Part shown: positions 17,443 through 54,902 of the stretch, piece after piece
Layout: every line of letters begins with the position of its first letter
Numbering within the stretch: position 1 is the stretch's first letter
Origin: Lentisphaerae bacterium GWF2_57_35
GTDB taxonomy: Bacteria; Verrucomicrobiota; Kiritimatiellia; CAIQIC01; GWF2-57-35
NCBI GenBank assembly: GCA_001804865.1
Contig: MHBK01000045.1
Span: 43,946 to 107,945, forward strand
DNA length: 64,000 nt
Direction of reading: 5' to 3'
Notes under the pieces: generated by a model
What the model saw: the letters and a program-made list of their open reading frames with translations, nothing else
Database searches by the model: none
What the model was told of the DNA's origin: nothing
Position numbers and translations under genes: made by a program

Positions 17443-17450
17443 CTCGCATT

Positions 17451-17469
17451 TTCCAATGATTGGAAAAAG
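17451..17469. terminator. weak AT-rich hairpin (ttttccaa-tga-ttggaaaa) between convergent genes; possible bidirectional terminator
   Basis: Perfect 8-bp inverted repeat flanked by T/A runs, between the stops at 17442 (+) and 17478 (-). Confidence 0.3.
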
Positions 17470-17477
17470 CCTGCCGC

Positions 17478-18818: not shown

Positions 18819-18989
18819 GCTTCAAAAGCTGCTCTTACGCGGTCAAGAATCGAAGCTAGACAACATTTTCATGGAATGGTATTCATATGCTCACAGAATG
18901 TACATCAAACATGTGTCCGATCTCACATAGCCAGTCGGCCATAAGGCGGAGAAACGGGCAACGAATACCGGAAGACGAGGTCTGATTGT

Positions 18990-19445
18990 ATGAATACCTT
19001 TGAACATTCCCGTTCATTCGGAATGAATGTCCCCGGCGATGCACAGTCCCTCTCCTTGATACGATTGCTCATGACTCATCTGGCCGAGACGGCAGGCTTC
19101 GCCGAAGAAGACATTGGCAAAATCGAGATTGCCGTGGACGAGGCCTGCACGAACGTGATCGAACATGCCTATGCCGCCATTTCGCCCAAACCTTCCATCC
19201 GGCTCGAAGTCGAATCGAATGCCGAGCAGCTCAGGGTGGACATCGTCGATCAGGGACAATCGTTCGACTATAATTCGTACATCCCCCCGAAATTCCCGGA
19301 TCACTGGAACGAAGGACATAAACGGGGCGTGGGCCTTTACCTGATCCGGAAATGCATGGACGACTCTTCCTATACCCGGTTGCCCGATCGAAGCAATCGG
19401 CTGCGTTTGATCAAGAAACTTTCCAAACCCGGCGATTCAAATTGA
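18990..19445 (+). CDS. RsbW-like anti-sigma regulatory factor (Ser-protein kinase, HATPase_c_2)
   Basis: 151 aa. IAVDEACTNVIEHAY...GVGLYLIRKCMD is the GHKL kinase signature of RsbW/SpoIIAB-type proteins. Confidence 0.8.
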   Translation: MNTFEHSRSFGMNVPGDAQSLSLIRLLMTHLAETAGFAEEDIGKIEIAVDEACTNVIEHAYAAISPKPSIRLEVESNAEQLRVDIVDQGQSFDYNSYIPPKFPDHWNEGHKRGVGLYLIRKCMDDSSYTRLPDRSNRLRLIKKLSKPGDSN

Positions 19446-19497
19446 GGGAGCCACGGCTGACCATCTGCCTGACGACCAGGAATAAAGGAGCTCGACC

Positions 19498-19866
19498 TTG
19501 AAAAAGAACACCCTTGCATGGGCAGGCCTGCTGACCCTGCTGACGGCTATATTCGGATGCAACTACGACGACGACGATTTCGACCATAATCCGCCGCCGG
19601 GCATGGGCTGCATCATCGTGAATAACAATACCGCCAACGATATCCGGGTTTTTGTCAACGGCATCGCCACCAACAACACGGACGATGCCGACTGGGAAGC
19701 CTACGACATGAAACCGGGCGTTTATCGCGTGGTGCTGGAAGAACGACATGGCGACCGGTCGTATCGCGACGATATCGACGTCATCGAAAACCGCCGGACG
19801 ATCCTCGACGTGACCACGGATGCGGTACGGCGCGATCGGTACGACGTCTATCTCTACTTCGATTAA
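19498..19866 (+). CDS. small lipoprotein, function unknown
   Basis: TTG start with AAAGGAG 7 nt upstream. LLTAIFGC lipobox, followed by a D-rich segment. Confidence 0.5.
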   Translation: MKKNTLAWAGLLTLLTAIFGCNYDDDDFDHNPPPGMGCIIVNNNTANDIRVFVNGIATNNTDDADWEAYDMKPGVYRVVLEERHGDRSYRDDIDVIENRRTILDVTTDAVRRDRYDVYLYFD

Positions 19867-19890
19867 CCGCGCTCGTCTGAAAGCATACCC

Positions 19891-20871
19891 ATGCCGATCG
19901 ATGGCTCAGGCCGATCCGTTCGCTATCTCCGCATCTCCCTGACCGATGCGTGCAATCTGAGCTGCCGGTACTGCATGCCGGACCAGATCGCATTCCGGCC
20001 CGCCCGGGAATTGATGACCAACGAAGAGGTGTTGCGACTGATCCAGCAATTTGCCGCGGTGGGCTTTGAAAAAATCCGGTTTACGGGCGGCGAACCGACT
20101 TTGCGGGACAACCTGTTGGGGTTGATCCAAAGCACTCGGGAGCTTGACGGCATACGGGAGGTCGTTCTCACCACCAACGGCTTGCTGCTCAAGGAGCTGG
20201 CCCGGCCGCTCGTTCATGCGGGGCTGCAACGGGTCAACATCAACCTGAATACGCTTCAGCCCAGGGTCTACCGCCGGATCACCCGCGGCGGACGCTTCAA
20301 GGAGGCCTGGGAAGGACTGCTGGCCGCCGACCGCGAGGGACTTCAAATCAAGATCAATTCCGTCATCCTGCGCGGCTACAATGACGGCAAAGACCCGGCG
20401 GAATTGGCGCGCCTTACCTTGACTCGCCCCTGGGACGTAAGATTCATCGAAGCCATGCCTTTGGGCAGCGTCGCGAGCTTCCAACAGTCGTCCCGTGTCA
20501 GCGAATCCAAAGTGCGCCGGATGGTCGTCCAGGCGCTGGGCCCCTTAACGCCCGTTCGAGACAGCCGCTCCGGCGGCCAGGTCCGCTTGTATCGCCTCCA
20601 AGGAGCGTCCGGCCGCGTGGGATTCATCAGTTCGGTAGCGCATCCCTTCTGCGATAAATGCACCCGCGCCCGCCTGACGGCCGACGGCAAAATGCGTCTT
20701 TGCCTTCTTCAGGAGGATGAAATCGATCTGCTGACCCCTCTTCGCGAAGGCGCGACGGACAAGGCCCTGCGAGAGCTGATCCGAAAAGGGCTGAAACGCA
20801 AGCCAGCCGGTCACGATCTCGCGCATCGAAAAACCCCAAGGAATCGGGTCATGTCTGAGATCGGCGGATGA
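19891..20871 (+). CDS. moaA: GTP 3',8-cyclase MoaA (radical SAM, molybdenum cofactor biosynthesis)
   Basis: YLRISLTDACNLSCRYCMP (CxxxCxxC radical-SAM cluster), GGEPTL, and a C-terminal CDKCTRARLTADGKMRLC second-cluster motif. Confidence 0.95.
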   Translation: MPIDGSGRSVRYLRISLTDACNLSCRYCMPDQIAFRPARELMTNEEVLRLIQQFAAVGFEKIRFTGGEPTLRDNLLGLIQSTRELDGIREVVLTTNGLLLKELARPLVHAGLQRVNINLNTLQPRVYRRITRGGRFKEAWEGLLAADREGLQIKINSVILRGYNDGKDPAELARLTLTRPWDVRFIEAMPLGSVASFQQSSRVSESKVRRMVVQALGPLTPVRDSRSGGQVRLYRLQGASGRVGFISSVAHPFCDKCTRARLTADGKMRLCLLQEDEIDLLTPLREGATDKALRELIRKGLKRKPAGHDLAHRKTPRNRVMSEIGG

Positions 20872-20885
20872 TCCTGCACTGAAAA

Positions 20886-20911
20886 GCGCCGGGGCAAGAT
20901 CGTCCCGGCGC
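20886..20911. terminator. GC-rich hairpin gcgccggg-(10 nt)-cccggcgc; rho-independent terminator for the minus-strand giant gene, probably bidirectional
   Basis: Perfect 8-bp stem. In the minus-strand orientation it is followed by TTTTC. It lies between the moaA stop (20871) and the giant gene stop (20938). Confidence 0.6.
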
Positions 20912-20937
20912 CATGCCTTCACCGGACCGCGACGGAA

Positions 20938-23900
20938 CTACGGGCTCATGAAGCGGGTCGGCAGCGTATAGATCAATTTGTTCGTCCAGACCCAGTCGTT
21001 GGTGTGCGTCGCAGCGATCACGATGCCGTCGTCCGGCGTGAAGCAATTATACCCCACGATGGCCCCGTTAACGCCAGACGCCTCGCGCCAGGTCATGTCG
21101 GAGGTCTTATACCAGATCCCGGCGCCGCTGACCTGTTGATTGGCCCGGTCGTATTTCAGGAGCTTATCCGAATGGCTCGGGCGCAGGCCGCCCTTGAAAC
21201 CGGACTCGAGCAAGTTCATCTGGCTGGGATGGACATTCCTGGGCAGCCCGAACGAGACCAGATTATACGCGGGACTGGCCATCGTACCGCCCTTGATCAA
21301 CTGCTCTTGCGTGTTGGTGGGAATGCGCCCAATAAACAAGGAGGTCTGGGCCGTTGCGTCTTCGGGAATTTCGATCACGACGCCTTCGTTCAGCGGCACC
21401 AGCATGTCGTCCGCATTTTCATCCCCGGATTGCCACTGCAAGGGCGACGACGACAACCAGATGGTCTGCGTCGCCGTTGCGATCGAACCCCGTTTGTGCC
21501 AGGAAACGCGCGTCGAGAGCAATTCGCTCTCGCCGCTGGGCAAATTATGCCCAAACACCCGAAACGCCGTGCAGGTGTCGGGAACGCCCGGGAAAGACAC
21601 CCAATTGAACCCGGGTTTCAAATGAATTGCTTTGAGCGCATAGATGCCTTCGCTGGCCACCCGGCGCCATTGGTTGGTCATCCACCGGTCTTTCTGGGCC
21701 GCGCGGTAAAAGCGCATATTGTTGCCCAGCATCCGCGGCGGCGAGCGGCCCGCGTCGACATCTCCCGTGTCGCAGAGCATACAGGTCACTCCGCGTCCCG
21801 CCAACTGCCATCGATTGCTCAAGGCCGCCGAGAAATCCGACGCATCCGTGTAAATCAAGTCGTACTCGCGCCCTTCCGCGGCCGTCCAGGCGATCTCGGC
21901 CCGGCCCAGATCCGTGGTGGCCACCGCGACGCCCTGCGTCACGAAGAAGCCCGAGAGCAGCACATTGTGCGGGTCGGACATCGGGCCTTCGTTGCCGGCC
22001 GCATCGACGCCGGCAATGGCCACATTATAATCTATGCCGAAGACGAAGTTGCTCAACGTGATCGCCTCGGTCAGCCGGTTGCTCAATGCGGGATTGTCCT
22101 CGAACGTGAAATGCGGGCTGTTCGTGGTCGGAGCCGTGTTGTCGTCGGTGTAATAAATCTTGTAGGACCGCCAGGGCGAGAGCGGATCGGCGCCGACGCC
22201 CCCGCCGTTGTTCGGCCGGCTCCACGTCAGATCGATTTCGGAGGTGTCGTCGAACGAGCCGGGCGCGACGACCACATTCATGATTTGCGTGGGCGCCACG
22301 CCGTCGTACATGATGACGAAGTTGGTGTTCGGGCTCTTCAGGCGGTCGCTCAACCGGTCGTCGTCGTCGTCCACCGCAAAGAACCAATTCGTCGTGATGC
22401 CGTTGGGGGCATTGGTGTAGATGACCCCGCCGATGCTCTGCACGGAGACGGTGACGGACAGATGGTCCCAGTAGCCGGTCGAAGGCATCTGCGAGTTATG
22501 CCCGCTGATGCCGCAACTCAGGCGGATGAACTCGGTGTCGGCCGTGGCATTGGTCACGGTCATGAGGGCCTGCGTCCAGACCGCCGCGTTCACGCCCACC
22601 AGCGGCGAGCCGTTATGATCGTCGTCCCATTCGTTCTCCACGATCCACGTCCGGACCGAAATGGCGTTGAAGCCTTCCGCCTTCAGGAAGCCGGCGGCGT
22701 AGTTGTTGCCGACTCCGACCCGGCTCAAGTCGCCCTTGAACCAACCGCTGAAGGAAATGAAGGGCCGCAGCCGATTGGAGTTGTTCAGATAGATATCCTG
22801 GGAGCAGAGGGTATAGCGCGGGGAGCCATCCGCCCGCGTGCCGGCCGCGATGATATGCCGCGTGGCCAGCGTCCCCTCCTGACCGCCCGCCTCGTCGGCA
22901 AAGTTCAGATAGCCTCCATCCGAGACAAACGATCTCCAGTTATTGACGGAGTCCGGATCGGCGGGAATGCTCAATTCGTCGGAGCCCACCTCAAAGCTGG
23001 CGTTGCTGATCAGGGTGGGCAGATAATTGGTTACATACGTCGCCGCCAGCGGCTCGCCGTCGATCGTCAGCGAGGGCTCGGCCGTGTTGGTCGACACGCG
23101 ATATTCCGAAATGCCCGACGCATCCAGGGACGGATCGAACGCCAGCACGAAGTGATTCACGTTGGTCCATCCATACGGCGTCATGACGATATTCGACGGC
23201 GTCGTGGGCTCGACGACATCGTCGTCAACGACCAGGAACGTGTTGGTGCTGTAAAGAATATTCGTGCTGTTCAGCGTCTGCAGCCGGTCGCTGGCGCGAT
23301 CGCTGTCCTTGTCGGTGGCAGACCATACGAACGAATACAGGCCGGTCGTCACATCCGCATAGCCCACGCCGGGCGCAGCGCGCCCGACGGTCCAAATGTT
23401 GCTCGCCCCCACCCGGTCGGTATAGGTCCAGCCCACGGCCGTGTGAACCATCGCGCCCACCGCATTGATCAGGCTGTAGTTGGCCGCGAAGTATTCGCCT
23501 TCGGTGGAGAGCGCCACTTCGCTCTCGTCCGCCAGCACCATGTTGATGTTCCACAACCCGAACCGGATGTCGCTGTCGGTCATCTGCTGGCCATTCTTGA
23601 TGTGCAATTCGCTGGCCGCGGGGGCGTTGGTGTCGTCGTCGATAATCCGCAGATAGCCGTACTGCTTATTGGTCGCGACCAGATAATCGCCGGCCCGATC
23701 GTTATCGGCGTCGTACAGCGTCGCCAGAATCCGCATGGGACCGGCCGCGATCAGGTCGTTAATCTCGGCTCCGCTCAGGGTCCACTTCCAGACGCTGGCG
23801 GCGCCGTCGCTCGTCGAGTCGGCGGTGCTGTCCGCAGCCGAGTAGTTGGCCACATTGTTTGCGGCGAAGCCTTCCACCGTCACGTTCATTTGCGTGGTCG

Positions 23901-26900
23901 CGCTCGACGCGCCCCGGGCCAGGCCGCTGTCGGGATCGTAGCCGCCGAAAAGCAAACTCAGCGAATTTGTGCCCAACTGCGAATCGAAGATCGTGAAGAC
24001 CGCGTTGGTGGACGCGTCGCTGGCCTCGATATACACCTCTCCGACTTTGACGGCCAGCGGAGGCGTCGGCCCGAACATGACGTCGTCAATCTGCAAGCCG
24101 CCGCCCTGGGCCGTGCCCGCGGAGCCCATGCCGCTGGCGGCGACGACGAGCCGCGCCCAGGCCGTGCCCACCGGCGAGGTCTTGGACAGGGAGACCTGCG
24201 TCCAGACCTCTCCGGGCGGCGTGAAGGATTGGGCCGCCGAGTCGATCATCGTGAACCCCGCGTCGAAGAACTCGATCTTCACCTCGCAGACCACCGCGGT
24301 AAACACATAAAGCCCGGGCCCGCCGCCCACCCCGTTGTCGCTCCAGAACCAGGCGGAGCCGTTCCACAGCGTTCCGTCCGGCGAGGTGTTGGCCGCTTGC
24401 TGCCAGATTCCGGCATTCGTTCCCGGCGACCAGGCGTTCAAAGACATTTCATAGGCGCCGCTGCGGGCGCGCCAGTTCTCGCGCGTGGCCGTGCCCCACC
24501 AATTGCCGCTTTCGTCCGGGAAGCCGTAATCCCAGCCGTAGGCTTTATACGCGGTCCCGCCCATCAGCTCGAAGCTGGAATTTTTCAGGCGCGTGCCGCC
24601 GCAGGAGCCCACCACGGGGGCGCTCGCGTCGTCGTCGCTGACCGCCAGCCAGCCGGCCTCCAGCACGGCGGAGGCCTGGTCCAGGTTGCGGTCGTTGTCC
24701 GCGTCGTAGACCGCCAGCGTGATCTGGTTGCTCTGCACGGGAAGCACGGAGAGCAACTCGCCGACCTGGTCGTAGGTGAAGGAGGTGTACACCCAGGTGC
24801 TCGTCGGACTGAGCAGGGCGTCCTTCGTGTGCTCGTAGGGGGAACTCCAGTCGACGGAACCCCGGAAGTTCGCCGTGTTGTTGGTGATCGTCGCGCCCAC
24901 GCTCATATGCGTGTTGGTGAGGGTGTGCCCGTTGACGTTGGCGGTGAAGGTCGTGCCCCGCTGCAAGCCCAGGATGTTGTCGCGGCCCAGGTCGTAGGTA
25001 TGGAACCGGAACTGCAATAGGTTGGTCTCCGACACGCCGGCCAACTGGCCGTCGGTAATCTGGAAAATCTGGTTGGAGCTGACGATATTGGTTTGCGGCG
25101 TCGGCGGAATCCACAGGCTGGACGCCGCGGTCTGCAGGCTTGTCCCGCCCAGCCACACCAGCAGCGAGGCGTTGGTGTTGCGCAACGTCTGCAAGGCCGG
25201 CGCGGTCGGATCGTTGTCGCGCCAGGCGATATAGCCCAGCTGCCAATCCGTCCGGCCCAGGCTGTCGTCGGGCCGGTCCGTGTCCCGGTCCGTCACCGAA
25301 ATGCTCACCCGGCTGGTCGTCTCCATCAACGCGGCAATTTGCACGTCCGAGAAGCTGGCAAACGCCCAGACGCTGGTGGCAAACAGGTTGTTGGCGTTGT
25401 CGAGCGAACTGCGGCCGGCATTATAGTTCGCATAGTTGTCCGTCACGTAATTTTCGACGCTGACGGTCATGTTCGAGCCGCCCGTCTCGCTGCTGAGGGC
25501 GCAGCCGCTCAAGTCGTAGAGGTTGAAGTGCAGTTCCACGTTCGTCGTGGCGGCATGGACCATGTGCTTGTCCGTCACGTACCAGACGCGATTGCTCTGC
25601 GAGCCGGCGCCTTGCGGAAAATCGTCGCCGACGAAGGGCGCCATCGCGCCGAACAAGTGCGCGCTGCCCGAGAGATTCGTCAGAAATTGGAAGGCAGTTC
25701 CGTACCGCGGTTCGGAAAGATCGTCGTCGAAGACCGTAAAGGACAACGGCACGTTGGTGGACTGTTCATCGCCAGGCCGATCCCAGTCGTTATCCGTAAC
25801 GGAGACCGAGCCGGTATAGGATCCCAAAGCGATGGCCGCGCGATTCACCGCCGGCAGTGCGACGGCCAACGGCATGGCCGTTTGCCCCTGCCCGTTGACG
25901 GTGGGCCCTGTCGTGAAGGCTTGGTTCGTGAAAAGTTGCGACCCGTCGGGGAAGAAGATGTTCACCCGAGGCCCCAAGGGTTCGCTAATCGACAGCAGCC
26001 CATTGCCCACATCCCGCACCAAGCCGGTGATGACACAGGTCCCCTCGGCCAAGTCGCCGTCCCCTATATAGCCCAAGCCTTTGATGGGACCAACCGTTCC
26101 TTGAAAACGCACGTTATCAATGGTCCATGGCCACTCGGCCGCGGCGTCGGCTATTCCGGCAAGACGCCATGTAGAATTTCCCGTAAAAGGAGCAGAGTCG
26201 AGGGGCTTGTTCATCGTCGCCCACAAGTCGTTGGTTGCCAGGCGAACAGGAGGATTAGTATCGACGAGAAATGCTAATCCTACTCTGAATGACCATAAAT
26301 CTACGATGGGAGTGTGATAGTCAAAAGAGACATTGGTTAAGTTCAGAGAGAACCCGGCATCCATCGCAAAGCGTCCCATAAAATAGGAAACTCCTCCTCC
26401 CCAATGCATCCACCCTGCCGAGGCTTGCGCTGCGCGACCGGGATTCCCGGCCACGCCAGTTAGGATGTCGGGAGCCCAGTCATGGAACCAAATCGGAGCG
26501 GGATCCAAGCGTTCCAACGCAAAGGTCGGGTTGGTCGTAAGCGTCTCGCTGCCGAAATCGTAAAACAGCAAGGTCCCCGACTTATACAAAGACGAACCGG
26601 ACACATCCAGCGACGAGATAACGGGCGCGGTCGTGTCGTCATCCGCAAAACTCAGCACGCCGAACTGTTGGTTGGATAAGGCCAACTGATCGGCCGGCCG
26701 ATCCGCGTCGGCATCGCGCACCGTAGCGACAATCTTGACGCTGCCCAGGGACAGCAAGGCGTTGATCTGATCCACGCTGAACGAATCGAATTCCCAAACG
26801 TTGGACGAGAGCACCGTCTTGGTTTCCTCGAAGGGACTGCTCTTGTTCGGGCAGAAATTCGCGACGTTATTCGTGCATAGGCCCTCGATGCTCAGATTCA

Positions 26901-39957: not shown

Positions 39958-40140
39958 TAGTCGTAGAAAAATCCGGCTTCGTTACCTTGAGCAAAAAAAA
40001 GTTTGGAGAGGAACGGATTCGCATATTTGCGAAAATTGTTTTTGACGTAGAGGGCGGATTTTCCAGTTGTTAGCCCATATAGTGCATGAGCTGTGTGGAA
40101 AAGGAGAAGTCGGCTCGTAAACGCGGAAAGGGCTTTCGAC

Positions 40141-40243
40141 GGACCGCCGCGGAACAACGGGCTTATGAAGCGGGTCGGCAGCGTATAGATCAACTGGGCA
40201 GCCCGAACGAGACCAGATTATACGCAGGACTGGCCATCGATCA
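40141..40243 (-). pseudogene. degenerate fragment of the 3' end of the 19-kb gene (3' UTR plus last 13 codons fused to a 51-bp patch from 260 bp further upstream), located just upstream of that gene's own start
   Basis: 40141-40192 nearly matches 20925-20976 (..cgggctYatgaagcgggtcggcagcgtatagatcaa; encodes IYTLPTRF[M/I]SP with the stop TAG changed to TTG). 40193-40243 nearly matches 21238-21288 (ctgggcagcccgaacgagaccagattatacgcRggactggccatcg). Confidence 0.75.
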
Positions 40244-40316
40244 TACCGGGTGCATCCGGACACTGCCGCAGATTTCTGTTTCCAACCCAAAGGAACTGCT
40301 GCTTACGGACGGCTAG

Positions 40317-46300: not shown

Positions 46301-49148
46301 CCAGTGTAAACGGCGGAGCTTCCACCTTGACGCCCCAGAACATTTCGACGGGCACTTCCGTTCGCACGTGCTCTTCGCCCATGTCCTCCAGCCAGGCGGA
46401 GATCACATAGCGCCCGCCTTCCAGGGTGGAACGATAGTCGGAGTCGTTCAGGTTCGAAGGCTGGACCGGAATCCGGGTCCACAAACTCCCCTGCCCCGGC
46501 GCCACCCAGTTGCTCTGCGAAACGCCATAGCGAATCCGCGATCCGTCCGCCCCGACCCGCTCCAAAGCCACGCGGACATTATCCCAATCCCAACTGACGG
46601 GGATATTGTATCCCACGTTCACCCCATACCAGTCGGGCGTCGGATAGACGCGCGTCGGGACGCTCCACGGTAAGTTCACGAACCAGATTTTGCCCTTGTT
46701 CGTGCTAATCAACGACTGGTCGCTTTGGGCGTCCGATGCGTAGGCATAAAGCAAAAGGAACTCGTCGCCGGCAAGGGAAACAGCCACGTCATCCCCGGCG
46801 TGATCCGTCACGATGCCGCCGCGTGTAAGATTCTCCACCCGCCGTCCGTTGAGCAGCCCGGGGGCATGCACCACCAGGTTCGTGATGAGACGATCCTTCC
46901 CGTTCATGCTCAACAGGGAGATCAAGACGCTTCCATTGGAGCAGGTGCGATAATCGGACACCACATAACGCGCAAGCGGATCGCCGGAGAGCTCGATGAC
47001 CGGCTCCATCTTGAAGGTTTGCTTAAGGGCGGCATCCAGCATCATCGTACGCACATCCCACGAATGCTCCATCCTCGGCGAATCCCCGGTTGAAGACAAC
47101 CCGTCCCCGAGGGCAAACGATGCAAAGGAAGCCCAGGCGTTACCGTGCGCTTTGACCGTCAAGGCCGGGATCGCAGTTTGAGAATTGGTTACCCCGGTGT
47201 GGGTGGCCAGCACCGTCGCATCGATATTGGTGATGCCATGCCAGATTTTCCACGTATGATAGGAAAAGTTGGTGTTGAGCAATCCGCAATTGGTTTCCAC
47301 ATTGACATAGATCCGATACACATTCGTGGGCAGGTACATGTAGCCGGTTTCGAGTCCCGGCACGGCATTGCTCACGTTCAACCCGAAGATCGAAGCCATG
47401 CAGGCATGCCAGTTGGCGTTGGAACGATAATAGCTGTCGTATTGACCGGGCAGATCGGATTCCGCCAAGACATTCACACCCTGCGCCAGCACATTAGTCT
47501 GCAAGGCTTCCAACCGATGGGGTTCCATCTGAAAATTGCGAGGCAGCAGCAGGGCTTGGGCATTGGTATAGACGCCGGCGTCAAACTGATCTTCATCGAT
47601 AATGCCCAGTTGAAAGCCCATGCGCCTGAAGGCCGCCCAGGTCATGCCAAATTCCTGATTATAGCGATTGTAGCCCAGATCGGTCTCCTTGCTCCAATAG
47701 GCTAAAATGTCGTTGGGAGGGTCCATGGAATGGGGCAACAATTTTTCGATGTGCATTTCATCCATGCGGCGATAAGCGGACAGGATGTTCCAATAAGTCT
47801 CCTTCAGCAGGCGGGTCCCATGCGTCATGCCGAAGCCTCCTTCCCGCGACAGCAAGTTGCCATAGGAAAAGTATTCCGGCCGATCGTTCCAATGGAAGAT
47901 ATGCGCACCGATAGCCCCGGACATGATCGCCTCCCACGGCAAGCTGGCTAAAGCGAACTTCTGGCGCTCGCTGGTCTCCCAGAAAAGTGCGTCGTTGTCG
48001 GACAAGCCGCACTCCGAAAGCATCACCGGCAACCCGATCGTTTCCCGGTATTTCGTCACGCCATAATCCATGGAACGCATCTCGTTGCCGGTCAAGACCC
48101 AGGGATAATTGTTGATCGTCCAGAAATCGACGGGCGTGCCGTTGCTGGCGCAGACGGATACGATGGTCTTGGCATCTTCGCAGGTGTTGTTGTCGTCAAA
48201 TCCGCTGAAAATGCCGCCCACCATCGCGTACGTCACGAGGTGATTGGTGTCCGCCGTTTTAACCGCCCCAACCCCCTCGGATAGGAACTCCGCAATGATG
48301 CGTTGCCGCCACTGCAGCACATCATAATACCCGGAACGCTGCGACTCGTGTTGATCCTGACGATTCAGGGGAAACTGGTTGGGCATGGGAATGGCGTCGA
48401 AATCGGGATAGGTCATGTCCCAGCGGCTGTTGAGTTCGCTGATGACGCCCGCATAACGGTTGCTCAGAAAGCGGTGAAACGATGGCAGGCTGTAGTTGGT
48501 GTCAAACCCGAGAAAACGATGGCTGGCATACAGGTCGGGCGGCTCCCAGAGATCGTAGAAGGCGAATTCGTTCCCGACAATCCAACCCCCAACGCATTTG
48601 AAGTCCTTATAGCGAGCGGCTATCGTCTGAACATAGGAGGCGTAGCTGGCGGCGGCTTCCGGCGAGTTGTAATTCAGCACATCGGAAATCCCCGTACTTC
48701 CAAGGTATTGATCGTAATGATACGCCATGCACGCGGGGTAGTTGGTTTTGAACCAGGAGGGCGGATACTGGTAGCCCATCAGAACAAATAACTTCATGTC
48801 CAGTTCTTCCGCGAGCGCCATCATGTAGTCGGCTTTTTCAAAATTATAGCAGCCCTCGTTGGTTTCGATCTGGCTCCAGGTCAACTCGACGCGCAGGGAG
48901 TTCACATGCATGCGCTTCATTTCGCGCAGATCGTACTCGAATTGGCTGAAAGTCTGGTTGGCATACACGGGCGGATTCCAGGATTGATAAGCCACGCCGT
49001 GCGGAATGAAATACGATTCTTTTTGAGCGTCCCAAAAGTAGCCGTCCCTTAACTCCAGACACCCGCCTCCCGCTCGCGCGAGGAGCGGCGCGCAGAAGAT
49101 AAGAGTGCAAACGAGAACTCTCAGACAGAAAACCACCCGGTTTCTCAT
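40317..49148 (-). CDS. giant (2943 aa) secreted glycoside hydrolase (clan GH-A TIM barrel, GH42/GH5-like) with two [beta-propeller repeat block + IPT/TIG] units and a thrombospondin-3-like/C-terminal beta domain
   Basis: Signal peptide MRNRVVFCLRVLVCTLIFCAPLLARA. HVNSLRVELTWSQIETNEGCYNF...FVLMGYQYPPSWF plus GWIVGNEFAF (acid/base NEF) and LSECG (nucleophile) indicate clan GH-A. Repeated GGxFTxAGGxxAxxVAxWNGxxWxxLGxG propeller blades. Two IPT/TIG domains (GGMNVTIQGLNLGSGSDITNVTLCG / GGAAVVIDGENLGNGTDITNVTFCG). The C-terminus is EADVEADADSDGLFSWQEF...YFRIRVP. Confidence 0.9.
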   Translation of the reverse strand: MRNRVVFCLRVLVCTLIFCAPLLARAGGGCLELRDGYFWDAQKESYFIPHGVAYQSWNPPVYANQTFSQFEYDLREMKRMHVNSLRVELTWSQIETNEGCYNFEKADYMMALAEELDMKLFVLMGYQYPPSWFKTNYPACMAYHYDQYLGSTGISDVLNYNSPEAAASYASYVQTIAARYKDFKCVGGWIVGNEFAFYDLWEPPDLYASHRFLGFDTNYSLPSFHRFLSNRYAGVISELNSRWDMTYPDFDAIPMPNQFPLNRQDQHESQRSGYYDVLQWRQRIIAEFLSEGVGAVKTADTNHLVTYAMVGGIFSGFDDNNTCEDAKTIVSVCASNGTPVDFWTINNYPWVLTGNEMRSMDYGVTKYRETIGLPVMLSECGLSDNDALFWETSERQKFALASLPWEAIMSGAIGAHIFHWNDRPEYFSYGNLLSREGGFGMTHGTRLLKETYWNILSAYRRMDEMHIEKLLPHSMDPPNDILAYWSKETDLGYNRYNQEFGMTWAAFRRMGFQLGIIDEDQFDAGVYTNAQALLLPRNFQMEPHRLEALQTNVLAQGVNVLAESDLPGQYDSYYRSNANWHACMASIFGLNVSNAVPGLETGYMYLPTNVYRIYVNVETNCGLLNTNFSYHTWKIWHGITNIDATVLATHTGVTNSQTAIPALTVKAHGNAWASFASFALGDGLSSTGDSPRMEHSWDVRTMMLDAALKQTFKMEPVIELSGDPLARYVVSDYRTCSNGSVLISLLSMNGKDRLITNLVVHAPGLLNGRRVENLTRGGIVTDHAGDDVAVSLAGDEFLLLYAYASDAQSDQSLISTNKGKIWFVNLPWSVPTRVYPTPDWYGVNVGYNIPVSWDWDNVRVALERVGADGSRIRYGVSQSNWVAPGQGSLWTRIPVQPSNLNDSDYRSTLEGGRYVISAWLEDMGEEHVRTEVPVEMFWGVKVEAPPFTLAPNTTYEIPVTWEDVPSYLPEEGPCPLNREHQWPPSEDDVVQQSYRIVLDLLDVHTNLLLTTNWVTRSGSGMHMFSITTPAEMPTNAWWRSLLVAEPITSDLIDSFEDRVPGNIKPSYINDAPMLVWLWDSVDKPYWWDEGIGLEPRTHGRQSQFLYLCTRSYFTYSGHTYHWALDRAEDFSSLALRSNIWFSFDLCIQKTNGTGGLTCPVELAVCTGLDGVTLRPTSYTNNGAFQHFSFRLSQFNTPPSWPKVAAHWNLIDGLSINVSHTLFNMPYVFFLDNVRLTGTLARAGTGGMTNAIYMGNGDLLPSPNPDRPPALYVETEAGVDVPYGAPAQTNFGTDAGLVLKGESRTNRFLLKADAARTVYMGTSWVEGPGQSSFSFGGIPEGPMSHDISSNIAVVFTGAQVGRRDAWLTIPCEGTNFILNLSCRVYDLSARAGPAVGGGLLTLTNLALGGASTVTNVWVGGISAAIVGQGDDWLSIVLPAHEAGWVDIVLQTEGTSELVLDRVYEYKPSGVIGWSGYEPYGWTNLGVGVSGSAHSVVALARTPDGVIYAGGGFYYADGTRVDHITRWNGTAWTNVGSGMNGSVSALLATTGGLLYVGGSFTTAGGKSANYIACWNGSTWTNLGTGLNSYASALALSSNGELYASGGFTTAGGMPATRVAMWNGTVWTNLGSGLNAPVNSLAWGSDGMLYAAGSFTSAGGGAASRVAYWDGAAWHALGSGVNNTVYDIMCGTNGVLAIGGIFTTVSGYAARWTGSAWGGMSVGMNNYVNTLLEHPNGLIYAGGSFTTADSAPAAGMASWNGTNWMGLGSGVRGGSVSALLATGDRELLVGGNFGTAGVVSASGIAKWASAQVVNLGVHPASVMTLGGMNVTIQGLNLGSGSDITNVTLCGISATGILSQCSTQVVVQANAGPAGLGDVVVYSTTYGNTVKSNAFAYYAPRILVLGTNSLIVLPSGEPALPAAGTDFGEVQVGSSATSILFVTNIESNDLHMTGVSTSGAAAARFCISGWPATVAPGETDAFSVVFSPVAGGAQSAVVSLLNDFTNYTVNLAGWGRFDLSVSAGPEAGGNSLIVTNLVLPGGDAITNVVIGGQNAAIQASGENWVEFSVPGHDPGAVDVVVQSVLQGNTLLEDAYTYNPNGTIGRTDYGPYAWTNMMGINSTVYSFTIDPVDGSLYAGSYSGSGVMRWMGTSWTNACPGLSLLNAIASVGGGVLYAGGGFTTGMGFLTDYIACWTGGAWTAMGSGMNASVAALAVDSNGHVYAGGAFTTAGGMPANRVAFWNGAVWTNLGAGLGATVLALALDTNGGLYAAGDFTNAGSQAANRVAYWNGSSWTNLGSGLSSTAYALALGQRGELYVGGSFSFAGGSTVNRLAKWNGTSWSSVGGGMGSTVYALKTAGKDGLYAGGAFYAAGGVVVSCVAYWNGSSWSGLGQGLTKLSSPVVRALEFGPDGQVFAGGDFTQSGLIAMTNSARWSPAWVQYRFGVNPTNGPVEGGAAVVIDGENLGNGTDITNVTFCGAPVASVISQCSTQVVVQTAAGSVGLGDVRVYSAGYGETVKSNAYRYRSSATVYLDNLVQLYNRYPRYVTATTDPSGLNVGFTYNGQTNVPVEAGVYVVTGAVTELDSMGMAASTLIVQRAEQAIAFPTPGNQVVTNTVRLAASADSNFKIDYTIESGPASIEDTTLLSFTQRGYVSIAAAQTGNENWFPAPTITNLFRVYGLYTVSVESCYGSSELSTGAHLLVEETLVTHRVTTPDTRGATQFVSCGWVMTGHDPASGSATEFTMAVTNDAMLAWLWTTNFWLATGAGAQGAVNVPSGWQPAGVTTSIAALADAYCHFVQWTGDVSGSVNPLELWMDSPKSIGASFTANLTTNHGIPEAWLARYGLTNFEADVEADADSDGLFSWQEFRVDTNPTNATSCLRLGQIRTESSAGLIYWQGGTGVLQYLERNEDLEGAWRVICTNAPPTPVDNVVTLGVEAVEGYFRIRVP

Positions 49149-49462
49149 GCAAACCTCCCAGAGGACTAATACATACTAACTCAACCGTCCAAAGCCTGTT
49201 TTGAACCGAGGAAATCGTCCTTATGCTCCTCAACGAACAGAGATACACCAAATGACCACACGTTAATAGAGAACCGGACGCTGTTTTCCCCTACCACAAT
49301 CTTGATTACACTTATAAGACTAGTATGCATATAGTATGCATGTCAAGACTTCTTTATCTCAGAGGGTTTGAAGGCATTTTGGTGCATGGCGGGAAGCCTC
49401 TTATTGAAGGGTTGCGACGAAGTTTAGATGACGACCAAGCCCCGAGAGTCTATCATCCGGTT

Positions 49463-50653
49463 ATGATTAGCGTACAAGAAGCCGAAAGAATCGTCGCTCA
49501 ACACAGCCCCAGCTCGCCTCCCGTCCCCTGCCCTTTGGCCAAAGCACAGGGACGAATTTTGCGCGAAGAGATTCATGCCGACCGGGATCAACCGCCTTTT
49601 CATCGGGTCATGATGGACGGCATCGCTATTTCCCCTCATGCGCGCGAAAGCGGGCAAACTTCGTTCCTCATCGAATCCACGCATGCGGCCGGGGCGCCGC
49701 CCCTTCGGTTAAACGATCCAACCGCTTGCATCCAAGTCATGACCGGAGCGACCCTTCCCGAGGGCTGCGATGGCGTGATCCCTTACGAAGACCTTTCGAT
49801 CCGGGGCCAGCAGGCCGAACTGAACCCGGGGCTGGTTTTAAAGCCCATGCAGTGGGTTCACGTCCAAGGCGCCGACCGCAAAAAGAACGAACGACTGCTC
49901 GCTCCCGGCATGAGATTGCTTTCTCCGCAAATCGCCATTCTTGCCTCGACCGGCCGCACGGAAGTGCGCGTTGGAGCCATCCCGTCGATCGCCATCGTTT
50001 CAACGGGAAACGAATTGGTCGATATCGGACAGGAGCTTGAGCCCTATCAAATCCGGCCTTCGAACGCGTATGGCTTTCACGCCGCCTTGAACCGCGCGGG
50101 ATTTGACCGCGTTGACCTTTCCCACGCGCGCGACGACCGCTCCGCCATCCGGCAATGCGTCGAGCAAGCGCTGAGCGCCCACGACGTGTTGATTCTGTCC
50201 GGCGGCGTATCGATGGGCAAACTCGACTTTGTGCCGGAGGTCCTGGAACAACTATCCGTGGTTCCGCTGTTTCATAAAATCCGGCAACGGCCGGGAAAAC
50301 CCTTCTGGTTCGGCGTCGCCCCCGGCGGAAAACAAGTCTTTGCCTTGCCGGGAAACCCTCTCTCCAGCCTGATTTGTTTTCATCGATATGTTTTGCCCAG
50401 TCTTTTCCAATCCATGGGCGAACCGATGCGGCGTCACGAACAGGTTCTTCTCGGCGAAGGGATCGGCGCGACGGGAACATCGACCCTGTTTATTCCGGTA
50501 ACCCTGAAGCAAGGAATCGAAGCCATCCCCATTTCCCATCATGGATCGGGCGACTTGTCGGCGCTCGCCGAAAGCACCGGATTCGTCGAATTGCCGGAAG
50601 GCCCTTTGCATTTTGAAAAAGGAACGGCGGTGGGGTATCATCGCTGGAACTGA
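49463..50653 (+). CDS. moeA: molybdopterin molybdenumtransferase MoeA
   Basis: MISVQEAERIV...PPFHRVMMDGIAI...LILSGGVSMGKLDFV are the MoeA N-terminal and MoCF-binding signatures. Typical ~396-aa length from ATG 49463. The ORF-track start at 49325 would add an atypical 46-aa extension. Confidence 0.9.
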   Translation: MISVQEAERIVAQHSPSSPPVPCPLAKAQGRILREEIHADRDQPPFHRVMMDGIAISPHARESGQTSFLIESTHAAGAPPLRLNDPTACIQVMTGATLPEGCDGVIPYEDLSIRGQQAELNPGLVLKPMQWVHVQGADRKKNERLLAPGMRLLSPQIAILASTGRTEVRVGAIPSIAIVSTGNELVDIGQELEPYQIRPSNAYGFHAALNRAGFDRVDLSHARDDRSAIRQCVEQALSAHDVLILSGGVSMGKLDFVPEVLEQLSVVPLFHKIRQRPGKPFWFGVAPGGKQVFALPGNPLSSLICFHRYVLPSLFQSMGEPMRRHEQVLLGEGIGATGTSTLFIPVTLKQGIEAIPISHHGSGDLSALAESTGFVELPEGPLHFEKGTAVGYHRWN

Positions 50654-50654
50654 T

Positions 50655-51119
50655 ATGTTATCGCACATAAGAAAAAATCGACCGGTCATGGTGAATGTCG
50701 GAAACAAAGAGGCGACCCATCGCATCGCCTGCGCCCAAGCCATTGTCCGGCTCCCGGAACCCGTTGCCCGCGCGGTCCGAAAAGGCGACATCGCCGGCCC
50801 CAAAGGCCCGATTCTGCAAACGGCCCGGCTCGCAGGCATCATGGCCGCCAAACAAACGTCCTCCTTGATCCCCTTGTGTCACCCCCTGGCGCTCGAAGAT
50901 TGCCGGATCGAGATTCGCTTCCCAAAGCGCAACGAGCTTCACATCGAGTGCACCGTCGAAACCCACCATAAGACAGGCGTTGAAATGGAGGCCCTGACGG
51001 GCGCCTCGGTGGCCGCCCTGACCGTTTACGACATGTGCAAAGCCCTTTCTCACCGCATCGTCATCCGCGAGATCCGGCTTCTGAAGAAAACGGGAGGCCG
51101 GCATGACTTCAACGGATGA
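50655..51119 (+). CDS. moaC: cyclic pyranopterin monophosphate synthase MoaC
   Basis: ...SSLIPLCHPLAL...GVEMEALTGASVAALTVYDMCKA... is the MoaC signature. The ATG lies 1 nt after the moeA stop. Confidence 0.9.
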   Translation: MLSHIRKNRPVMVNVGNKEATHRIACAQAIVRLPEPVARAVRKGDIAGPKGPILQTARLAGIMAAKQTSSLIPLCHPLALEDCRIEIRFPKRNELHIECTVETHHKTGVEMEALTGASVAALTVYDMCKALSHRIVIREIRLLKKTGGRHDFNG

Positions 51120-51747
51120 ATCGGCGCCCCTCTACGGCTTGGTGCTGACCGGCGGCAAAAGCAGCCGGATGAAAACCGACAAGGCGGCCCTGCGCTATAA
51201 TGGCCAAGCCCAATCGGCCCGCGCGTTCGAACTGCTGGCAAAGGTTTGCGCCAAAGTCTATCTATCGAATCGCGCCGACCAATCGGAGGCGCCGGGACAT
51301 GCGAGCTTCCCGCAAATTCACGATCTCTTCGCGAACTTCGGTCCCGTCGGAGGAATTTTATCGGCGCTGAAAACCCATCCGGCTCACGCCTGGCTGGTAA
51401 CGGCCTGCGATTTGCCGTTTCTGGATGAGGCTACGCTTCTTCAATTAATCCGGCATCGCGATCCCCGCCGCATGGCCACCGCTTTTCTCAGCGCACACGA
51501 CGGCAAGCCCGAACCCTTATGCGCGATTTATGAACCGCACAGCATGGCCCGCCTGCTGGACTTTACAACCCGCGACGTGTATTGTCCCCGCAAGATGCTC
51601 ATGCAGTCGGATGCGCATCTTCTCCCATTGGAAAACCCGCAAGCGCTGGATAACGTGAATTTCCCGGAAGAGTACGAACAGGCGCAACGTCGGGCGGAAA
51701 GCACAACGCCATCGGACGGCAGGAATAATGAGGTAAGAAATGGCTGA
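51103..51747 (+). CDS. mobA: molybdenum cofactor guanylyltransferase MobA
   Basis: YGLVLTGGKSSRMKTDKA is the MobA nucleotide-binding motif. GGGAGG SD lies 5 nt upstream. It overlaps the moaC 3' end by 17 nt. Confidence 0.85.
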   Translation: MTSTDESAPLYGLVLTGGKSSRMKTDKAALRYNGQAQSARAFELLAKVCAKVYLSNRADQSEAPGHASFPQIHDLFANFGPVGGILSALKTHPAHAWLVTACDLPFLDEATLLQLIRHRDPRRMATAFLSAHDGKPEPLCAIYEPHSMARLLDFTTRDVYCPRKMLMQSDAHLLPLENPQALDNVNFPEEYEQAQRRAESTTPSDGRNNEVRNG

Positions 51748-51988
51748 AAAGAATATTCAAGTCCGGTATTTCGCGATGATGGGCGAAAAGCGAGGCTGCC
51801 AAACGGAAAACCTGAAAACCGCCGTGCACACGCCCGAGGAGCTTTTTAACGAGCTGCGCGAGCGGCATGGCTTCAAATTTACCACCCATGTCGTCAAAGT
51901 AGCCATCAATGACCGGTTCGAAGACTGGCATACGCCCTTGAAAGAGGGCGACACGGTGGCGTTTCTCCCCCCCTTCTCAGGAGGTTGA
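51740..51988 (+). CDS. moaD: molybdopterin synthase sulfur-carrier subunit MoaD
   Basis: 82 aa with a ThiS/MoaD fold-like sequence ending in ...PPFSGG (C-terminal Gly-Gly). A GAGGTAAG SD is present. Confidence 0.85.
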   Translation: MAEKNIQVRYFAMMGEKRGCQTENLKTAVHTPEELFNELRERHGFKFTTHVVKVAINDRFEDWHTPLKEGDTVAFLPPFSGG

Positions 51989-51990
51989 TC

Positions 51991-52407
51991 GTGTTGATGT
52001 TCAGCCCCCACCCTCTCGAGCTGTCCGGCCTGCACCGCGCCTTGAGCGTCAAGGAAGCGGGGGCGCTGGTTTGTTTCGAAGGCCGGGTGCGTTCCACAAG
52101 CCCGCATGGCGAAGTCGTTTCCATCGATTACGAAGCGTACGAGGAGCTCAGCGTACGCGAATTCGAGCGAATCGAACAGGAAACCCGCGCACAATTTGGC
52201 ATCCTGGATATTCGATGCGTTCACCGGACCGGAACCGTTTCGTCCGGAGAACCCGCCGTCTGGGCCGGCGTACTGGCGATTCACCGGCGCGAGGCCTTCC
52301 AAGCGTGCGAGCATATCGTCAACGAATTGAAAGCTCGCCTTCCCATTTGGAAAAAAGAGATCTACGCGGATGGAAATAGTCGCTGGATCGACTATTCCCA
52401 GGGTTGA
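51991..52407 (+). CDS. moaE: molybdopterin synthase catalytic subunit MoaE
   Basis: ...VCFEGRVRS...AIHRREAFQACEHIVNELKARLPIWKKEIY is the MoaE signature. The ORF is open from TTG 51985, which overlaps the moaD stop as TTGA. GTG 51991 has GGAGG 6 nt upstream and is preferred. Confidence 0.8.
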   Translation: MLMFSPHPLELSGLHRALSVKEAGALVCFEGRVRSTSPHGEVVSIDYEAYEELSVREFERIEQETRAQFGILDIRCVHRTGTVSSGEPAVWAGVLAIHRREAFQACEHIVNELKARLPIWKKEIYADGNSRWIDYSQG

Positions 52408-54769: not shown

Positions 54770-54902
54770 TATCCTGCCCCCCACGAATAACCATAAACCA
54801 CTAAATCTAAAAAACAACAACCGCCGGCCACGGCCGGCGGAAAAACAGGCGCGCTCCAGTCCCCTCGAAGCGGGCTGGAGCGCGCCTTTCACCCGAAACG
54901 GG

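What the first reader, a model, noticed from the sequence alone, without database searches (positions are those of the whole stretch)
19891..52407. Molybdenum-cofactor genes split by a 28-kb block of two giant genes
moaA (19891-20871, +) and moeA-moaC-mobA-moaD-moaE (49463-52407, +, tightly coupled by ATGA- and TTGA-type overlaps) have the same orientation. They are separated by two giant minus-strand genes (20938-49148) that begin at a divergent promoter facing moeA and end at a strong terminator hairpin (20886-20911) abutting moaA. This is consistent with insertion or expansion of the giant-gene block inside an ancestral moaA-moeA-moaC... operon, leaving moaA transcribed with the upstream RsbW-like kinase and lipoprotein genes. 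The 314-nt leader upstream of moeA (49149-49462) is long enough to host a Moco riboswitch.
Basis: inference. Interest (0 to 1): 0.5.

Follow-up and report, generated by a model that had tools for sequence, protein, structure and literature searches.

The report
Giant-gene pair inserted between moaA and moeA
In this Lentisphaerota genome a 28.5-kb pair of the organism's own giant surface-protein genes sits in the short gap between two neighbouring molybdenum-cofactor gene units, apparently without breaking either, and no riboswitch is involved, so this is a well-documented but ordinary genome rearrangement.

Summary
moaA (19891-20871) and moeA-moaC-mobA-moaD-moaE (49463-52407) lie on the + strand. 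Two minus-strand giant genes separate them: g1 (6339 aa, or 6299 aa from the likelier start) and g2 (2943 aa).

The insertion idea is supported. Three relatives (MoaA 75%, 64% and 59% identical) keep the same upstream genes and have moaA followed directly by moeA, 74-210 nt away. The closest relative's metagenome carries the orthologous g2-g1 pair on another contig, next to another g1-type gene.

The block is native. Its codon usage matches the genome, the same genome has at least two more g1/g2 pairs, and there is no integrase, transposase or tRNA. It is present in three independent assemblies.

Two parts of the interpretation fail:
- No Moco riboswitch is found in the window or the relatives. 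The "314-nt leader" is mostly g2's own conserved promoter and 5' UTR. moeA has a conserved promoter-like site ending 6 nt before its ATG.
- moaA and moeA were probably already separate transcription units, because the closest relative has terminator-like hairpins between them. The RsbW-like-lipoprotein-moaA linkage is ancestral.

By-products: a 108-nt relic of a g1 gene end lies between the giants. g1 also carries an uncharacterised ~300-aa C-terminal domain shared by 268 mostly large proteins.

The parts
18990..19445 (+). RsbW-like serine kinase / anti-sigma factor gene. Its position upstream of moaA is ancestral.
   Evidence: Pfam HATPase_c_2, 1.2e-25. Same position in L006 and L015/L016.
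19498..19866 (+). 122-aa predicted lipoprotein gene, 24 nt upstream of moaA
   Evidence: N-terminus LKKNTLAWAGLLTLLTAIFG|C contains a lipobox. No Pfam or NCBIfam family. A small ORF sits at the same place in L006, L007 and L015/16.
19891..20871 (+). moaA (GTP 3',8-cyclase)
   Evidence: Pfam Radical_SAM + Mob_synth_C. 100% identical to a protein annotated as MoaA.
20872..20912 (.). Retained ancestral moaA 3' flank, including the G+C-rich hairpin at 20886-20911. moaA and g1 now converge on it.
   Evidence: Fold: + strand -27.5 kcal/mol, z = -2.4. Shares GAAAAG and CAAGATCG(T/C)CCCG with the L006 spacer (the local alignment alone is not significant, 40 of 500 shuffles).
20913..20924 (.). Left junction zone of the inserted block
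   Evidence: The repeat shared with the relic ends at 20915 (robustly at about 20924), so sequence from there on belongs to the giant-gene block. One arm of the inverted 9-mer is at 20913-20921.
20938..39957 (-). Giant gene g1: 6339 aa from the first ATG, or 6299 aa from the likelier start at 39837 just before a signal peptide. PATR / beta-helix repeats, choice-of-anchor D, BACON, then about 3000 aa with no known family.
   Evidence: Other assemblies call it as 6299 aa. Colinear ortholog in L008 at 72-76% nt identity.
20941..21840 (-). Conserved ~300-aa C-terminal domain of g1-type proteins, ending ...YTLPTRFMSP-COOH
   Evidence: 268 cluster representatives. In nearly all 150 listed hits, and in all 34 inspected, the match ends at the protein's C-terminus. 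AF2 pLDDT 90.3. No Pfam or PDB match.
40132..40239 (-). Relic of a g1-type gene end in the g2-g1 spacer. Two pieces that lie 262 nt apart in g1 are joined here, and the copy runs 23 nt past the stop codon.
   Evidence: Repeats D11 (98%) and D8 (89%); alignment. Absent from the orthologous spacer in L008.
40317..49148 (-). Giant gene g2 (2943 aa): signal peptide, GH42-like TIM barrel, beta-propellers, TIG / Ig-like, MBG and InlB-B-repeat domains
   Evidence: Pfam, NCBIfam, PDB GH42 hits with the NE motif aligned, N-terminus. 76% ortholog P0122 and ~58% paralogs P0123/P0124.
49149..49365 (-). g2 5' UTR and promoter-like element that came with the block: -35 TTGACA at 49346-49341, N18, TAGTCT at 49322-49317
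   Evidence: Alignable with the region upstream of the g2 ortholog in L008. There the scanner flags TTGACA-N18-TAGTAT, 10 of 12.
49366..49427 (.). Right junction zone. Origin unresolved; the second arm of the inverted 9-mer is at 49369-49377.
   Evidence: Homology to L008 stops at about 49365 and clear homology to L006 starts at about 49423. No match to any fetched locus.
49428..49456 (+). moeA promoter-like site, ATGACG-N17-TATCAT, ending 6 nt before the ATG. Ancestral DNA.
   Evidence: Scanner hit. Same site in L006, ATGACG-N17-TATATT, also 6 nt before the ATG. 22 of 31 identities at -40..-10, p about 8e-7.
49463..50653 (+). moeA (molybdopterin molybdotransferase)
   Evidence: Pfam MoeA_N, MoCF_biosynth, MoeA_C. 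The alignment with L006 starts at 49463.
50655..51119 (+). moaC
   Evidence: Pfam MoaC 2.1e-52. Start at 50655, 1 nt after the moeA stop.
51103..51747 (+). mobA
   Evidence: Pfam NTP_transf_3. 17-nt overlap with moaC.
51740..51988 (+). moaD
   Evidence: Pfam ThiS. 8-nt overlap with mobA.
51985..52407 (+). moaE (start at TTG 51985, or more likely ATG 51997)
   Evidence: Pfam MoaE. Other gene callers give 136 aa. Junction sequence.

Best explanation
A pair of the organism's own giant secreted or surface-protein genes sits in the roughly 200-nt spacer between moaA and moeA. The block is about 28.45 kb, from roughly 20915 to between 49365 and 49427. It consists of g2, g1, g2's promoter and 5' UTR, and 23 nt of g1's 3' flank. 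It entered on the branch leading to this species (Lentisphaerae bacterium GWF2_57_35), after the split from a sister lineage that is about 73% identical in DNA.

The pair belongs to a multi-copy family of g1-type and g2-type genes arranged in arrays. It was relocated or copied from such an array rather than acquired from outside.

The break fell between moaA's 3' hairpin and moeA's own promoter, which lies right against the moeA start codon. So moaA (with the RsbW-like and lipoprotein genes) and moeA-moaC-mobA-moaD-moaE each kept their signals. The giants brought their own promoter, and g1 now ends at the old moaA hairpin. Molybdenum-cofactor synthesis is therefore expected to be unaffected, and no riboswitch is involved.

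Shown: the gene identities, the derived state, the native origin, the approximate junctions, and the absence of a riboswitch and of mobility genes.
Inferred: promoter and terminator function, leaderless moeA mRNA, and the recombination mechanism.
For: Synteny:
- L006 (MoaA 75%) has the same ten upstream genes, then moaA, a 210-nt gap, moeA, moaC.
- L007 (64%) has moaA-moeA-moaC-mobA-moaD-moaE.
- L015/L016 (59%) have DUF362-STAS-RsbW-small ORF-moaA-moeA-moaC.
- The DNA alignment of L006 to the window breaks exactly at moaA's end and resumes at 49463.

Native origin:
- The g2 ortholog (76%) and a colinear g1 ortholog lie on another contig of the same sample as L006, next to another g1-type gene.
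- L006 and L008 are equally diverged from the window, 73.2% and 74.2%.
- Paralogous pairs exist in the same genome.
- Synonymous-codon correlation is 0.93 between giants and flanks, against a flank-to-flank baseline of 0.96. GC3 equals that of the paralogous giants.
- No Pfam family on the seven longest antisense ORFs and no tRNA.

Junctions and signals.

Fixation in the species: three independent assemblies.
Against: - That L006 and L008 come from one organism is inferred from shared sample, equal divergence and parallel GC. It is not proven.
- The 1.65 kb downstream of the relative's g1 could not be retrieved, so the donor context is only half known.
- Junctions are resolved only to about 10 nt on the left and about 60 nt on the right.
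- Spacer homology to L006 near moaA is weak (40 of 500 shuffles score as well).
- Promoters and terminators are consensus or structure predictions only. The window's g2 -10 box is weak (3 of 6) and the scanner does not flag the window hairpin.
- The order of relatives rests on MoaA identity, not on a species tree.
Confidence: 0.8

Rival explanations
1. The split arrangement is ancestral, and the relatives lost the giant block by deletion, which brought moaA next to moeA secondarily.
For: Giant repetitive genes are deletion-prone. Only three relatives could be examined.
Against: - It needs at least two or three independent clean deletions, or insertion followed by excision.
- The relatives' spacers hold structured terminator-like hairpins and the same moeA promoter-like site as the window.
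- The relative keeps an intact orthologous pair elsewhere.
Confidence: 0.05
2. The block is a horizontally acquired genomic island or mobile element.
For: - Block GC is 0.60 against 0.563 in the flanks.
- A 9-nt inverted repeat lies at both inferred junctions (19 of 2000 shuffles by exact match).
- Giant genes are reported to be strain-specific with deviant oligonucleotide usage (Reva & Tummler 2008, as cited in PMC11573180).
Against: - Codon usage matches the genome, and the GC excess is shared by the paralogous giants.
- Orthologs occur in the sister lineage and paralogs in the same genome.
- No integrase, transposase, tRNA or direct target duplication.
- The inverted repeat is not significant by local alignment score (232 of 2000 shuffles).
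Confidence: 0.07
3. The arrangement is a mis-assembly: a chimeric join inside repetitive giant genes.
For: The source is a metagenome-assembled genome. The giants have paralogs that are 60-85% identical at their 3' ends. Some short-read contigs break inside g1 (L003).
Against: Both junctions are seen in NCBI, ENA and Logan assemblies. One ENA contig spans moaA, the block, the moa genes and the next giant pair with identical spacing.
Confidence: 0.02
4. The region upstream of moeA is a regulatory leader, such as a Moco riboswitch, that now controls the downstream moa genes separately.
For: It is 314 nt of non-coding DNA. Moco riboswitches often precede moa operons (general knowledge, Rfam RF01055).
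Against: - No RF01055 hit at the gathering threshold or at E up to 10 with lax filters, in the window or the relatives.
- The relatives' moaA-moeA spacers are only 74-210 nt, and in L006 the moeA promoter-like site abuts the ATG.
- About 215 of the 314 nt are homologous to the g2 upstream region of L008.
Confidence: 0.02

Closest known systems
Bacterial molybdenum-cofactor biosynthesis clusters (moaABCDE / moeA / mobA, as in E. coli)
   Same: The same enzyme families are present and tightly packed: MoaA, MoeA, MoaC, MobA, MoaD, MoaE.
   Different: The order is moaA | moeA-moaC-mobA-moaD-moaE, with no moaB. moaA is linked to an RsbW-like kinase and a lipoprotein gene. moaA and moeA are probably separate transcription units. 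In this species a 28.5-kb block interrupts the cluster.
[quoted passage not shown]
   Same: Genes of 9-19 kb that encode signal-peptide-bearing, repeat-rich proteins without a known enzymatic core. Lentisphaerae are listed among the phyla enriched in proteins over 5000 aa.
   Different: These form a g1/g2 family in arrays with native codon usage. They share an uncharacterised C-terminal domain, and g2 carries a GH42-like glycosidase domain.
Moco riboswitch (Rfam RF01055)
   Same: Only the genomic context: non-coding DNA upstream of moa genes.
   Different: No match to the covariance model at any threshold tried.
Type Va autotransporter adhesins (for example ShdA and EprS, which gave partial hits)
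   Same: g1 has PATR / beta-strand repeats typical of autotransporter passengers.
GH42 beta-galactosidases
   Same: g2 residues ~69-322 match Glyco_hydro_42 (84.8 bits, cut-off 21) and PDB GH42 enzymes, with the NE acid/base motif aligned.
   Different: Only the first ~250 of 376 profile positions match. The domain heads a 2943-aa multidomain protein. GH42 oligomerisation domains were not detected. Activity is untested.

Membership tests
Moco riboswitch RF01055 | Match to the Rfam covariance model at or above the gathering score | tested here: not met
   No Rfam hit in the whole window at gathering. No RF01055 hit at E up to 10 in 48900-49600 or 18800-21000. None in L006 or L007.
Moco biosynthesis gene cluster | Presence of MoaA, MoaC, MoaD, MoaE, MoeA and MobA family proteins | tested here: met
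   All six match their Pfam families above the curated cut-offs.
Single moaA-moeA operon (ancestral co-transcription) | No terminator or promoter between moaA and moeA in uninterrupted relatives | tested here: not met
   L006 has two + strand terminator-like hairpins (11030-11049 and 11068-11087; fold z = -7.9) and a promoter-like site at 11157-11185. These are predictions only; transcription was not measured.
Genomic island / mobile element | Integrase, transposase or other mobility gene inside the block | tested here: not met
   Only the two giant genes. The seven longest antisense ORFs have no Pfam family.
Genomic island / mobile element | Insertion at a tRNA gene, or flanking direct repeats (target duplication or att sites) | tested here: not met
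   No tRNA in the window. The longest direct match between the junction zones is 6 nt, which is chance level. There is an inverted 9-mer of marginal significance.
Genomic island / mobile element | Composition or codon usage deviating from the host genome | tested here: not met
   Synonymous-codon correlation is 0.93 with the flanks and 0.98 with the paralogous giants. The flank-to-flank baseline is 0.96.
Type Va autotransporter | C-terminal outer-membrane beta-barrel translocator | tested here: not met
Type Va autotransporter | Passenger beta-helix / PATR repeats | tested here: met
   PF12951 PATR 5.4e-40, TIGR02601 5.7e-39.
GH42 beta-galactosidase | Clan GH-A TIM-barrel catalytic domain above the family threshold | tested here: met
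   PF02449 at 84.8 bits against a cut-off of 21. PDB GH42 hits down to 7e-8.
GH42 beta-galactosidase | Both catalytic glutamates and the trimerisation / C-terminal domains | tested here: inconclusive
   The NE acid/base motif is aligned. The nucleophile lies outside the shown alignment and was not checked. Only profile positions 11-250 of 376 matched.
Prokaryotic giant genes / huge proteins | Gene over 5 kb (Reva & Tummler) or protein over 5000 aa (PMC11573180), of the surface-protein class | tested here: met
   g1 is 19.0 kb / 6339 aa and g2 is 8.8 kb / 2943 aa (g2 meets only the gene-length criterion). Both have signal-peptide-like N-termini and adhesin-type domains.

The most novel reading that the evidence does not exclude
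The ~300-aa C-terminal domain of g1-type proteins may be a new sorting or anchoring module for giant surface proteins of Lentisphaerota and related bacteria. It is invariably terminal in the hits inspected, ends in ...PT(R/K)x(M/I/F)(S/T/N)P-COOH, and has no match in Pfam or the PDB. Its conserved coding sequence, present at the 3' end of every g1-type gene, may also be the recombination substrate that shuffles giant-gene cassettes around the genome. On this reading, the relic of a g1 end between g2 and g1, and the relocation of the pair into the moa spacer, are both footprints of that process.
Probability: 0.2. Interest if true: 0.5.

Novelty: new member of a known kind. Interest (0 to 1): 0.25.

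Why it matters
For the finding itself the value is mainly a clean negative. There is no riboswitch and no broken operon, only a tolerated insertion between a terminator-like hairpin and a promoter.

The by-products may be more useful. This poorly studied phylum carries a family of paired giant genes, at least three pairs plus a solo g1-type gene in one genome. These genes share a confidently modelled but unclassified C-terminal domain, which could mark an unknown export or attachment route.

Tried and rejected
- Scan of species-representative genomes with MoaA: only two distant loci at 38-41% identity, uninformative.
- Protein search with g1: one query was too long, one timed out, and the third returned only 3 hits without the ortholog. 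As a result the 1.65 kb downstream of the relative's g1 could not be fetched.
- Exact look-ups of P0121 and of the 396-aa MoeA found nothing on record. mobA was used instead.
- Strict local alignment of the spacers against L006 and L007 was not significant. Only the ATG-anchored comparison upstream of moeA was.
- Search for a recombination breakpoint in g1-type 3' ends: identities are 60-85% everywhere. Paralogs are as similar as cross-species pairs, so the orthology of the relative's upstream gene X is unresolved.
- Search for the source of the ~70 nt after the relic and of the right junction gap: no match in any fetched locus.
- Tandem repeats in the block: essentially none.
- Single-sequence AF2 of the C-terminal domain was useless, pLDDT 31. 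The afdb50 fold library was unavailable.
- Profile search of the C-terminal domain against PDB sequences: nothing.
- Idea that the block sits in the loop of an ancestral terminator hairpin, with the inverted 9-mers as the two arms. It conflicts in part with the relic-defined block end and is only marginally supported, so it is kept as a note only.
Full report
**1. Observation**

The ORF list shows moaA at 19891-20871 (+). Two very long minus-strand ORFs follow, at 20938-39957 (6339 aa, called g1 here) and 40317-49148 (2943 aa, g2). A + strand run then ends at 52407.

Pfam confirms the Moco genes:
- MoaA: Radical_SAM + Mob_synth_C.
- MoeA: three domains. The match starts at residue 48 of the longest ORF, so the ATG at 49463 is the real start.
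- MoaC, MobA (NTP_transf_3), MoaD (ThiS) and MoaE.
- An RsbW-like HATPase_c_2 protein at 18990-19445.

The 122-aa ORF before moaA has a lipobox.

The hairpin at 20886-20911 is real. It has a 10-bp G+C-rich stem, the + strand fold has z = -2.4, and UUUU follows on the minus-strand transcript.

**2. Source and reliability**

moaA and its flanks are identical in NCBI MAG GCA_003489865.1, an ENA contig and a Logan contig. g2 is 100% identical to a protein of Lentisphaerae bacterium GWF2_57_35. The g2/moeA junction is present in three independent assemblies. One ENA contig spans the whole region with identical spacing. The arrangement is therefore real and fixed in this population.

**3. What the giants are**

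They are not NRPS or PKS genes.

- g2 has a signal peptide and an N-terminal GH42-like TIM barrel with the NE motif aligned to solved beta-galactosidases. It also has beta-propeller, TIG / Ig-like, choice-of-anchor D, MBG and InlB-B-repeat domains.
- g1 has a probable signal peptide after Met41, and other gene callers give 6299 aa. It has PATR / beta-helix repeats, choice-of-anchor D and BACON, followed by about 3000 aa with no family.

Both look like secreted or cell-surface proteins. Lentisphaerae are among the phyla reported as enriched in proteins over 5000 aa (PMC11573180).

**4. Riboswitch test**

Rfam gave no hit at the gathering threshold in the whole window. With permissive filters there was no RF01055 hit in 48900-49600 or 18800-21000, and none in relatives L006 and L007.

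**5. Synteny test**

The lineage is sparsely sampled. After the self-hit, MoaA homologs drop to 75%, 64%, then 59% and below.

- L006 (75%, JGI sample 3300073871) has the same ten genes upstream, from Metallophos to RsbW-like and the small ORF. Then come moaA, 210 nt, moeA and moaC.
- L007 (64%, labelled Lentisphaerota) has the small ORF, moaA, a 119-nt gap, then moeA-moaC-mobA-moaD-moaE.
- L015/L016 (59%) have DUF362-STAS-RsbW-small ORF-moaA, 74 nt, moeA-moaC.

DNA alignment of L006 to the window is colinear at 73%. It stops at 20869 and resumes exactly at 49463. Adjacency is therefore ancestral and the split is derived on the window's branch. The same data show that moaA's linkage to the RsbW-like and lipoprotein genes is ancestral.

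**6. Where the block came from**

- g2 has a full-length 76% homolog (P0122) on another contig of the same sample as L006. A colinear g1 ortholog follows it at 72-76% nt identity.
- L006 and this contig (L008) are equally diverged from the window, 73.2% and 74.2%. Their GC values differ in the same direction as flank and block do in the window. The simplest reading is one sister organism with an intact moaA-moeA and the giant pair elsewhere.
- In L008 the gene upstream of g2 ends with a g1-type C-terminus, so the pair sits inside an array of giant genes.
- The window's own genome has more copies:
  - Pair B (g1' then g2', about 58-61% identical) lies about 17 kb to the right of the moa genes, just outside the window.
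  - Pair C is A2X46_08275 / A2X46_08280 (L012).
  - A solo g1-type gene is A2X46_18735 (L013).
- Codon usage of the block correlates 0.93 with the flanking genes, against a flank-to-flank baseline of 0.96, and 0.98 with the paralogous giants. The modest GC excess is shared by the paralogs.
- There are no mobility genes on either strand, no tRNA and no direct repeats at the ends.

The block is a relocated or copied native gene pair. It is not a foreign island and not an in-place expansion.

**7. Junctions and signals**

Left side:
- A repeat shared with the g2-g1 spacer (section 8) runs 23 nt past g1's stop codon and ends at 20915. Block DNA therefore reaches to about 20915-20924.
- The 43 nt between there and moaA contain the hairpin. 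They share GAAAAG and CAAGATCG(T/C)CCCG with L006's spacer, which is weak evidence on its own.

Right side:
- The region upstream of g2 aligns with the region upstream of the L008 ortholog, up to about 49365. It includes TTGACA at 49346-49341, N18, then TAGTCT. In L008 the same site is TTGACA-N18-TAGTAT, which the scanner flags at 10 of 12.
- From about 49423 the DNA matches L006 upstream of moeA: 22 of 31 identities at -40..-10, p about 8e-7.
- The scanner finds ATGACG-N17-TATCAT at 49428-49456 and ATGACG-N17-TATATT at the same place in L006. Both end 6 nt before the ATG. This suggests a leaderless or nearly leaderless moeA mRNA, which is an inference.
- The origin of 49366-49427 is unresolved.

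L006 also has two + strand terminator-like hairpins between moaA and moeA, with fold z = -7.9. moaA and moeA were thus probably already separate transcription units. The block landed between a terminator region and a promoter, which explains why it could be tolerated.

**8. By-products**

(a) Relic. The g2-g1 spacer holds a 108-nt relic (40132-40239) of a g1-type gene end. It is made of two pieces, 98% and 89% identical to g1, that lie 262 nt apart in g1. The relic is missing from the orthologous spacer in L008. It points to recombination or repair events that involved g1 3' ends in this lineage.

(b) C-terminal domain. The last ~300 aa of g1 define a family of 268 cluster representatives among 1.84 billion proteins.
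- In nearly all listed hits the match ends at the extreme C-terminus of the protein. Most are large, up to 7648 aa.
- All 34 inspected members end in ...PT(R/K)x(M/I/F)(S/T/N)P.
- No Pfam family covers it, and there is only a weak TIGR02597 hint.
- It is not an autotransporter barrel.

(c) Inverted 9-mer. ATGCCTTCA at 20913-20921 and TGAAGGCAT at 49369-49377 lie at both inferred junctions. The statistics are marginal: 19 of 2000 shuffles by exact match and 232 of 2000 by local score.

**9. Verdict**

The riboswitch, the "broken operon" and the "new co-transcription of moaA" parts do not hold. The event is an ordinary, tolerated rearrangement involving a known class of genes. Interest is low to moderate. 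The uncharacterised C-terminal domain and the array organisation of the giant-gene family are the most promising leads.

Noticed in passing
window 40132-40239 (compare 20915-20976 and 21239-21284): A 108-nt relic of a g1-type gene end lies in the g2-g1 spacer. Two pieces, 98% and 89% identical to g1, are 262 nt apart in g1 but joined in the relic, and the copy runs 23 nt past the stop codon. It is absent from the orthologous spacer of the relative (L008).
   Followed up: partly
window 20941-21840 (minus strand): An uncharacterised ~300-aa C-terminal domain of g1, ending ...PT(R/K)x(M/I/F)(S/T/N)P. It has 268 cluster representatives, with the match at the extreme C-terminus in nearly all listed hits, mostly large proteins. 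The AF2 model is confident (pLDDT 90), but there is no Pfam or PDB match.
   Followed up: partly
outside the window, about 66.6-93 kb in window coordinates (L009/L010); also L012 and L013: The same genome has at least two more g1/g2 giant pairs and a solo g1-type gene. In those pairs the order is g1-type then g2-type. In the relative, the orthologous pair sits in an array: g1-type, then g2, then g1.
   Followed up: partly
window 20913-20921 and 49369-49377: An inverted 9-mer (ATGCCTTCA / TGAAGGCAT) lies at both inferred insertion junctions. Statistically marginal: 19 of 2000 shuffles by exact match, 232 of 2000 by local score.
   Followed up: yes
window 49428-49462; L006 11157-11191: A conserved moeA promoter-like site whose -10 box ends 6 nt before the ATG, with no Shine-Dalgarno sequence visible. 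This suggests leaderless moeA mRNA in this lineage.
   Followed up: partly
window 49319-49346: The spacer of the g2 promoter-like element holds two tandem copies of ATGCATACTA(T/G) (minus strand) with ATGCAT and ACTAGT palindromes. The relative has three degenerate 11-nt units at the same place. It may be a regulator binding site.
   Followed up: no
window 11057-11169 and 58234-58346: A 113-nt internally palindromic repeat occurs twice at 95% identity, REP- or MITE-like. The NCBI MAG contig ends at about window position 58242, inside the second copy.
   Followed up: no
window 15553-19866; L006, L007, L015/L016: Moco genes are consistently linked to partner-switching-type signalling genes across relatives: a SpoIIE phosphatase, an RsbW-like kinase, in some relatives a STAS protein, and a small lipoprotein directly upstream of moaA. 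The functional meaning is unknown.
   Followed up: partly
window 1176-8078: Another large + strand ORF (2300 aa) with repeats spaced 729 nt apart (2837, 3566, 4295). Not characterised.
   Followed up: no
window 54164-55535: Two adjacent minus-strand ORFs share 70-82% identical segments at about 740-nt spacing (repeats D2 and D13). They are probably tandem paralogs of unknown function.
   Followed up: no
window 21004-25020 (+): A 1338-aa open frame lies antisense to g1 and has no Pfam family. It is most likely a by-product of g1's composition and not a gene.
   Followed up: yes
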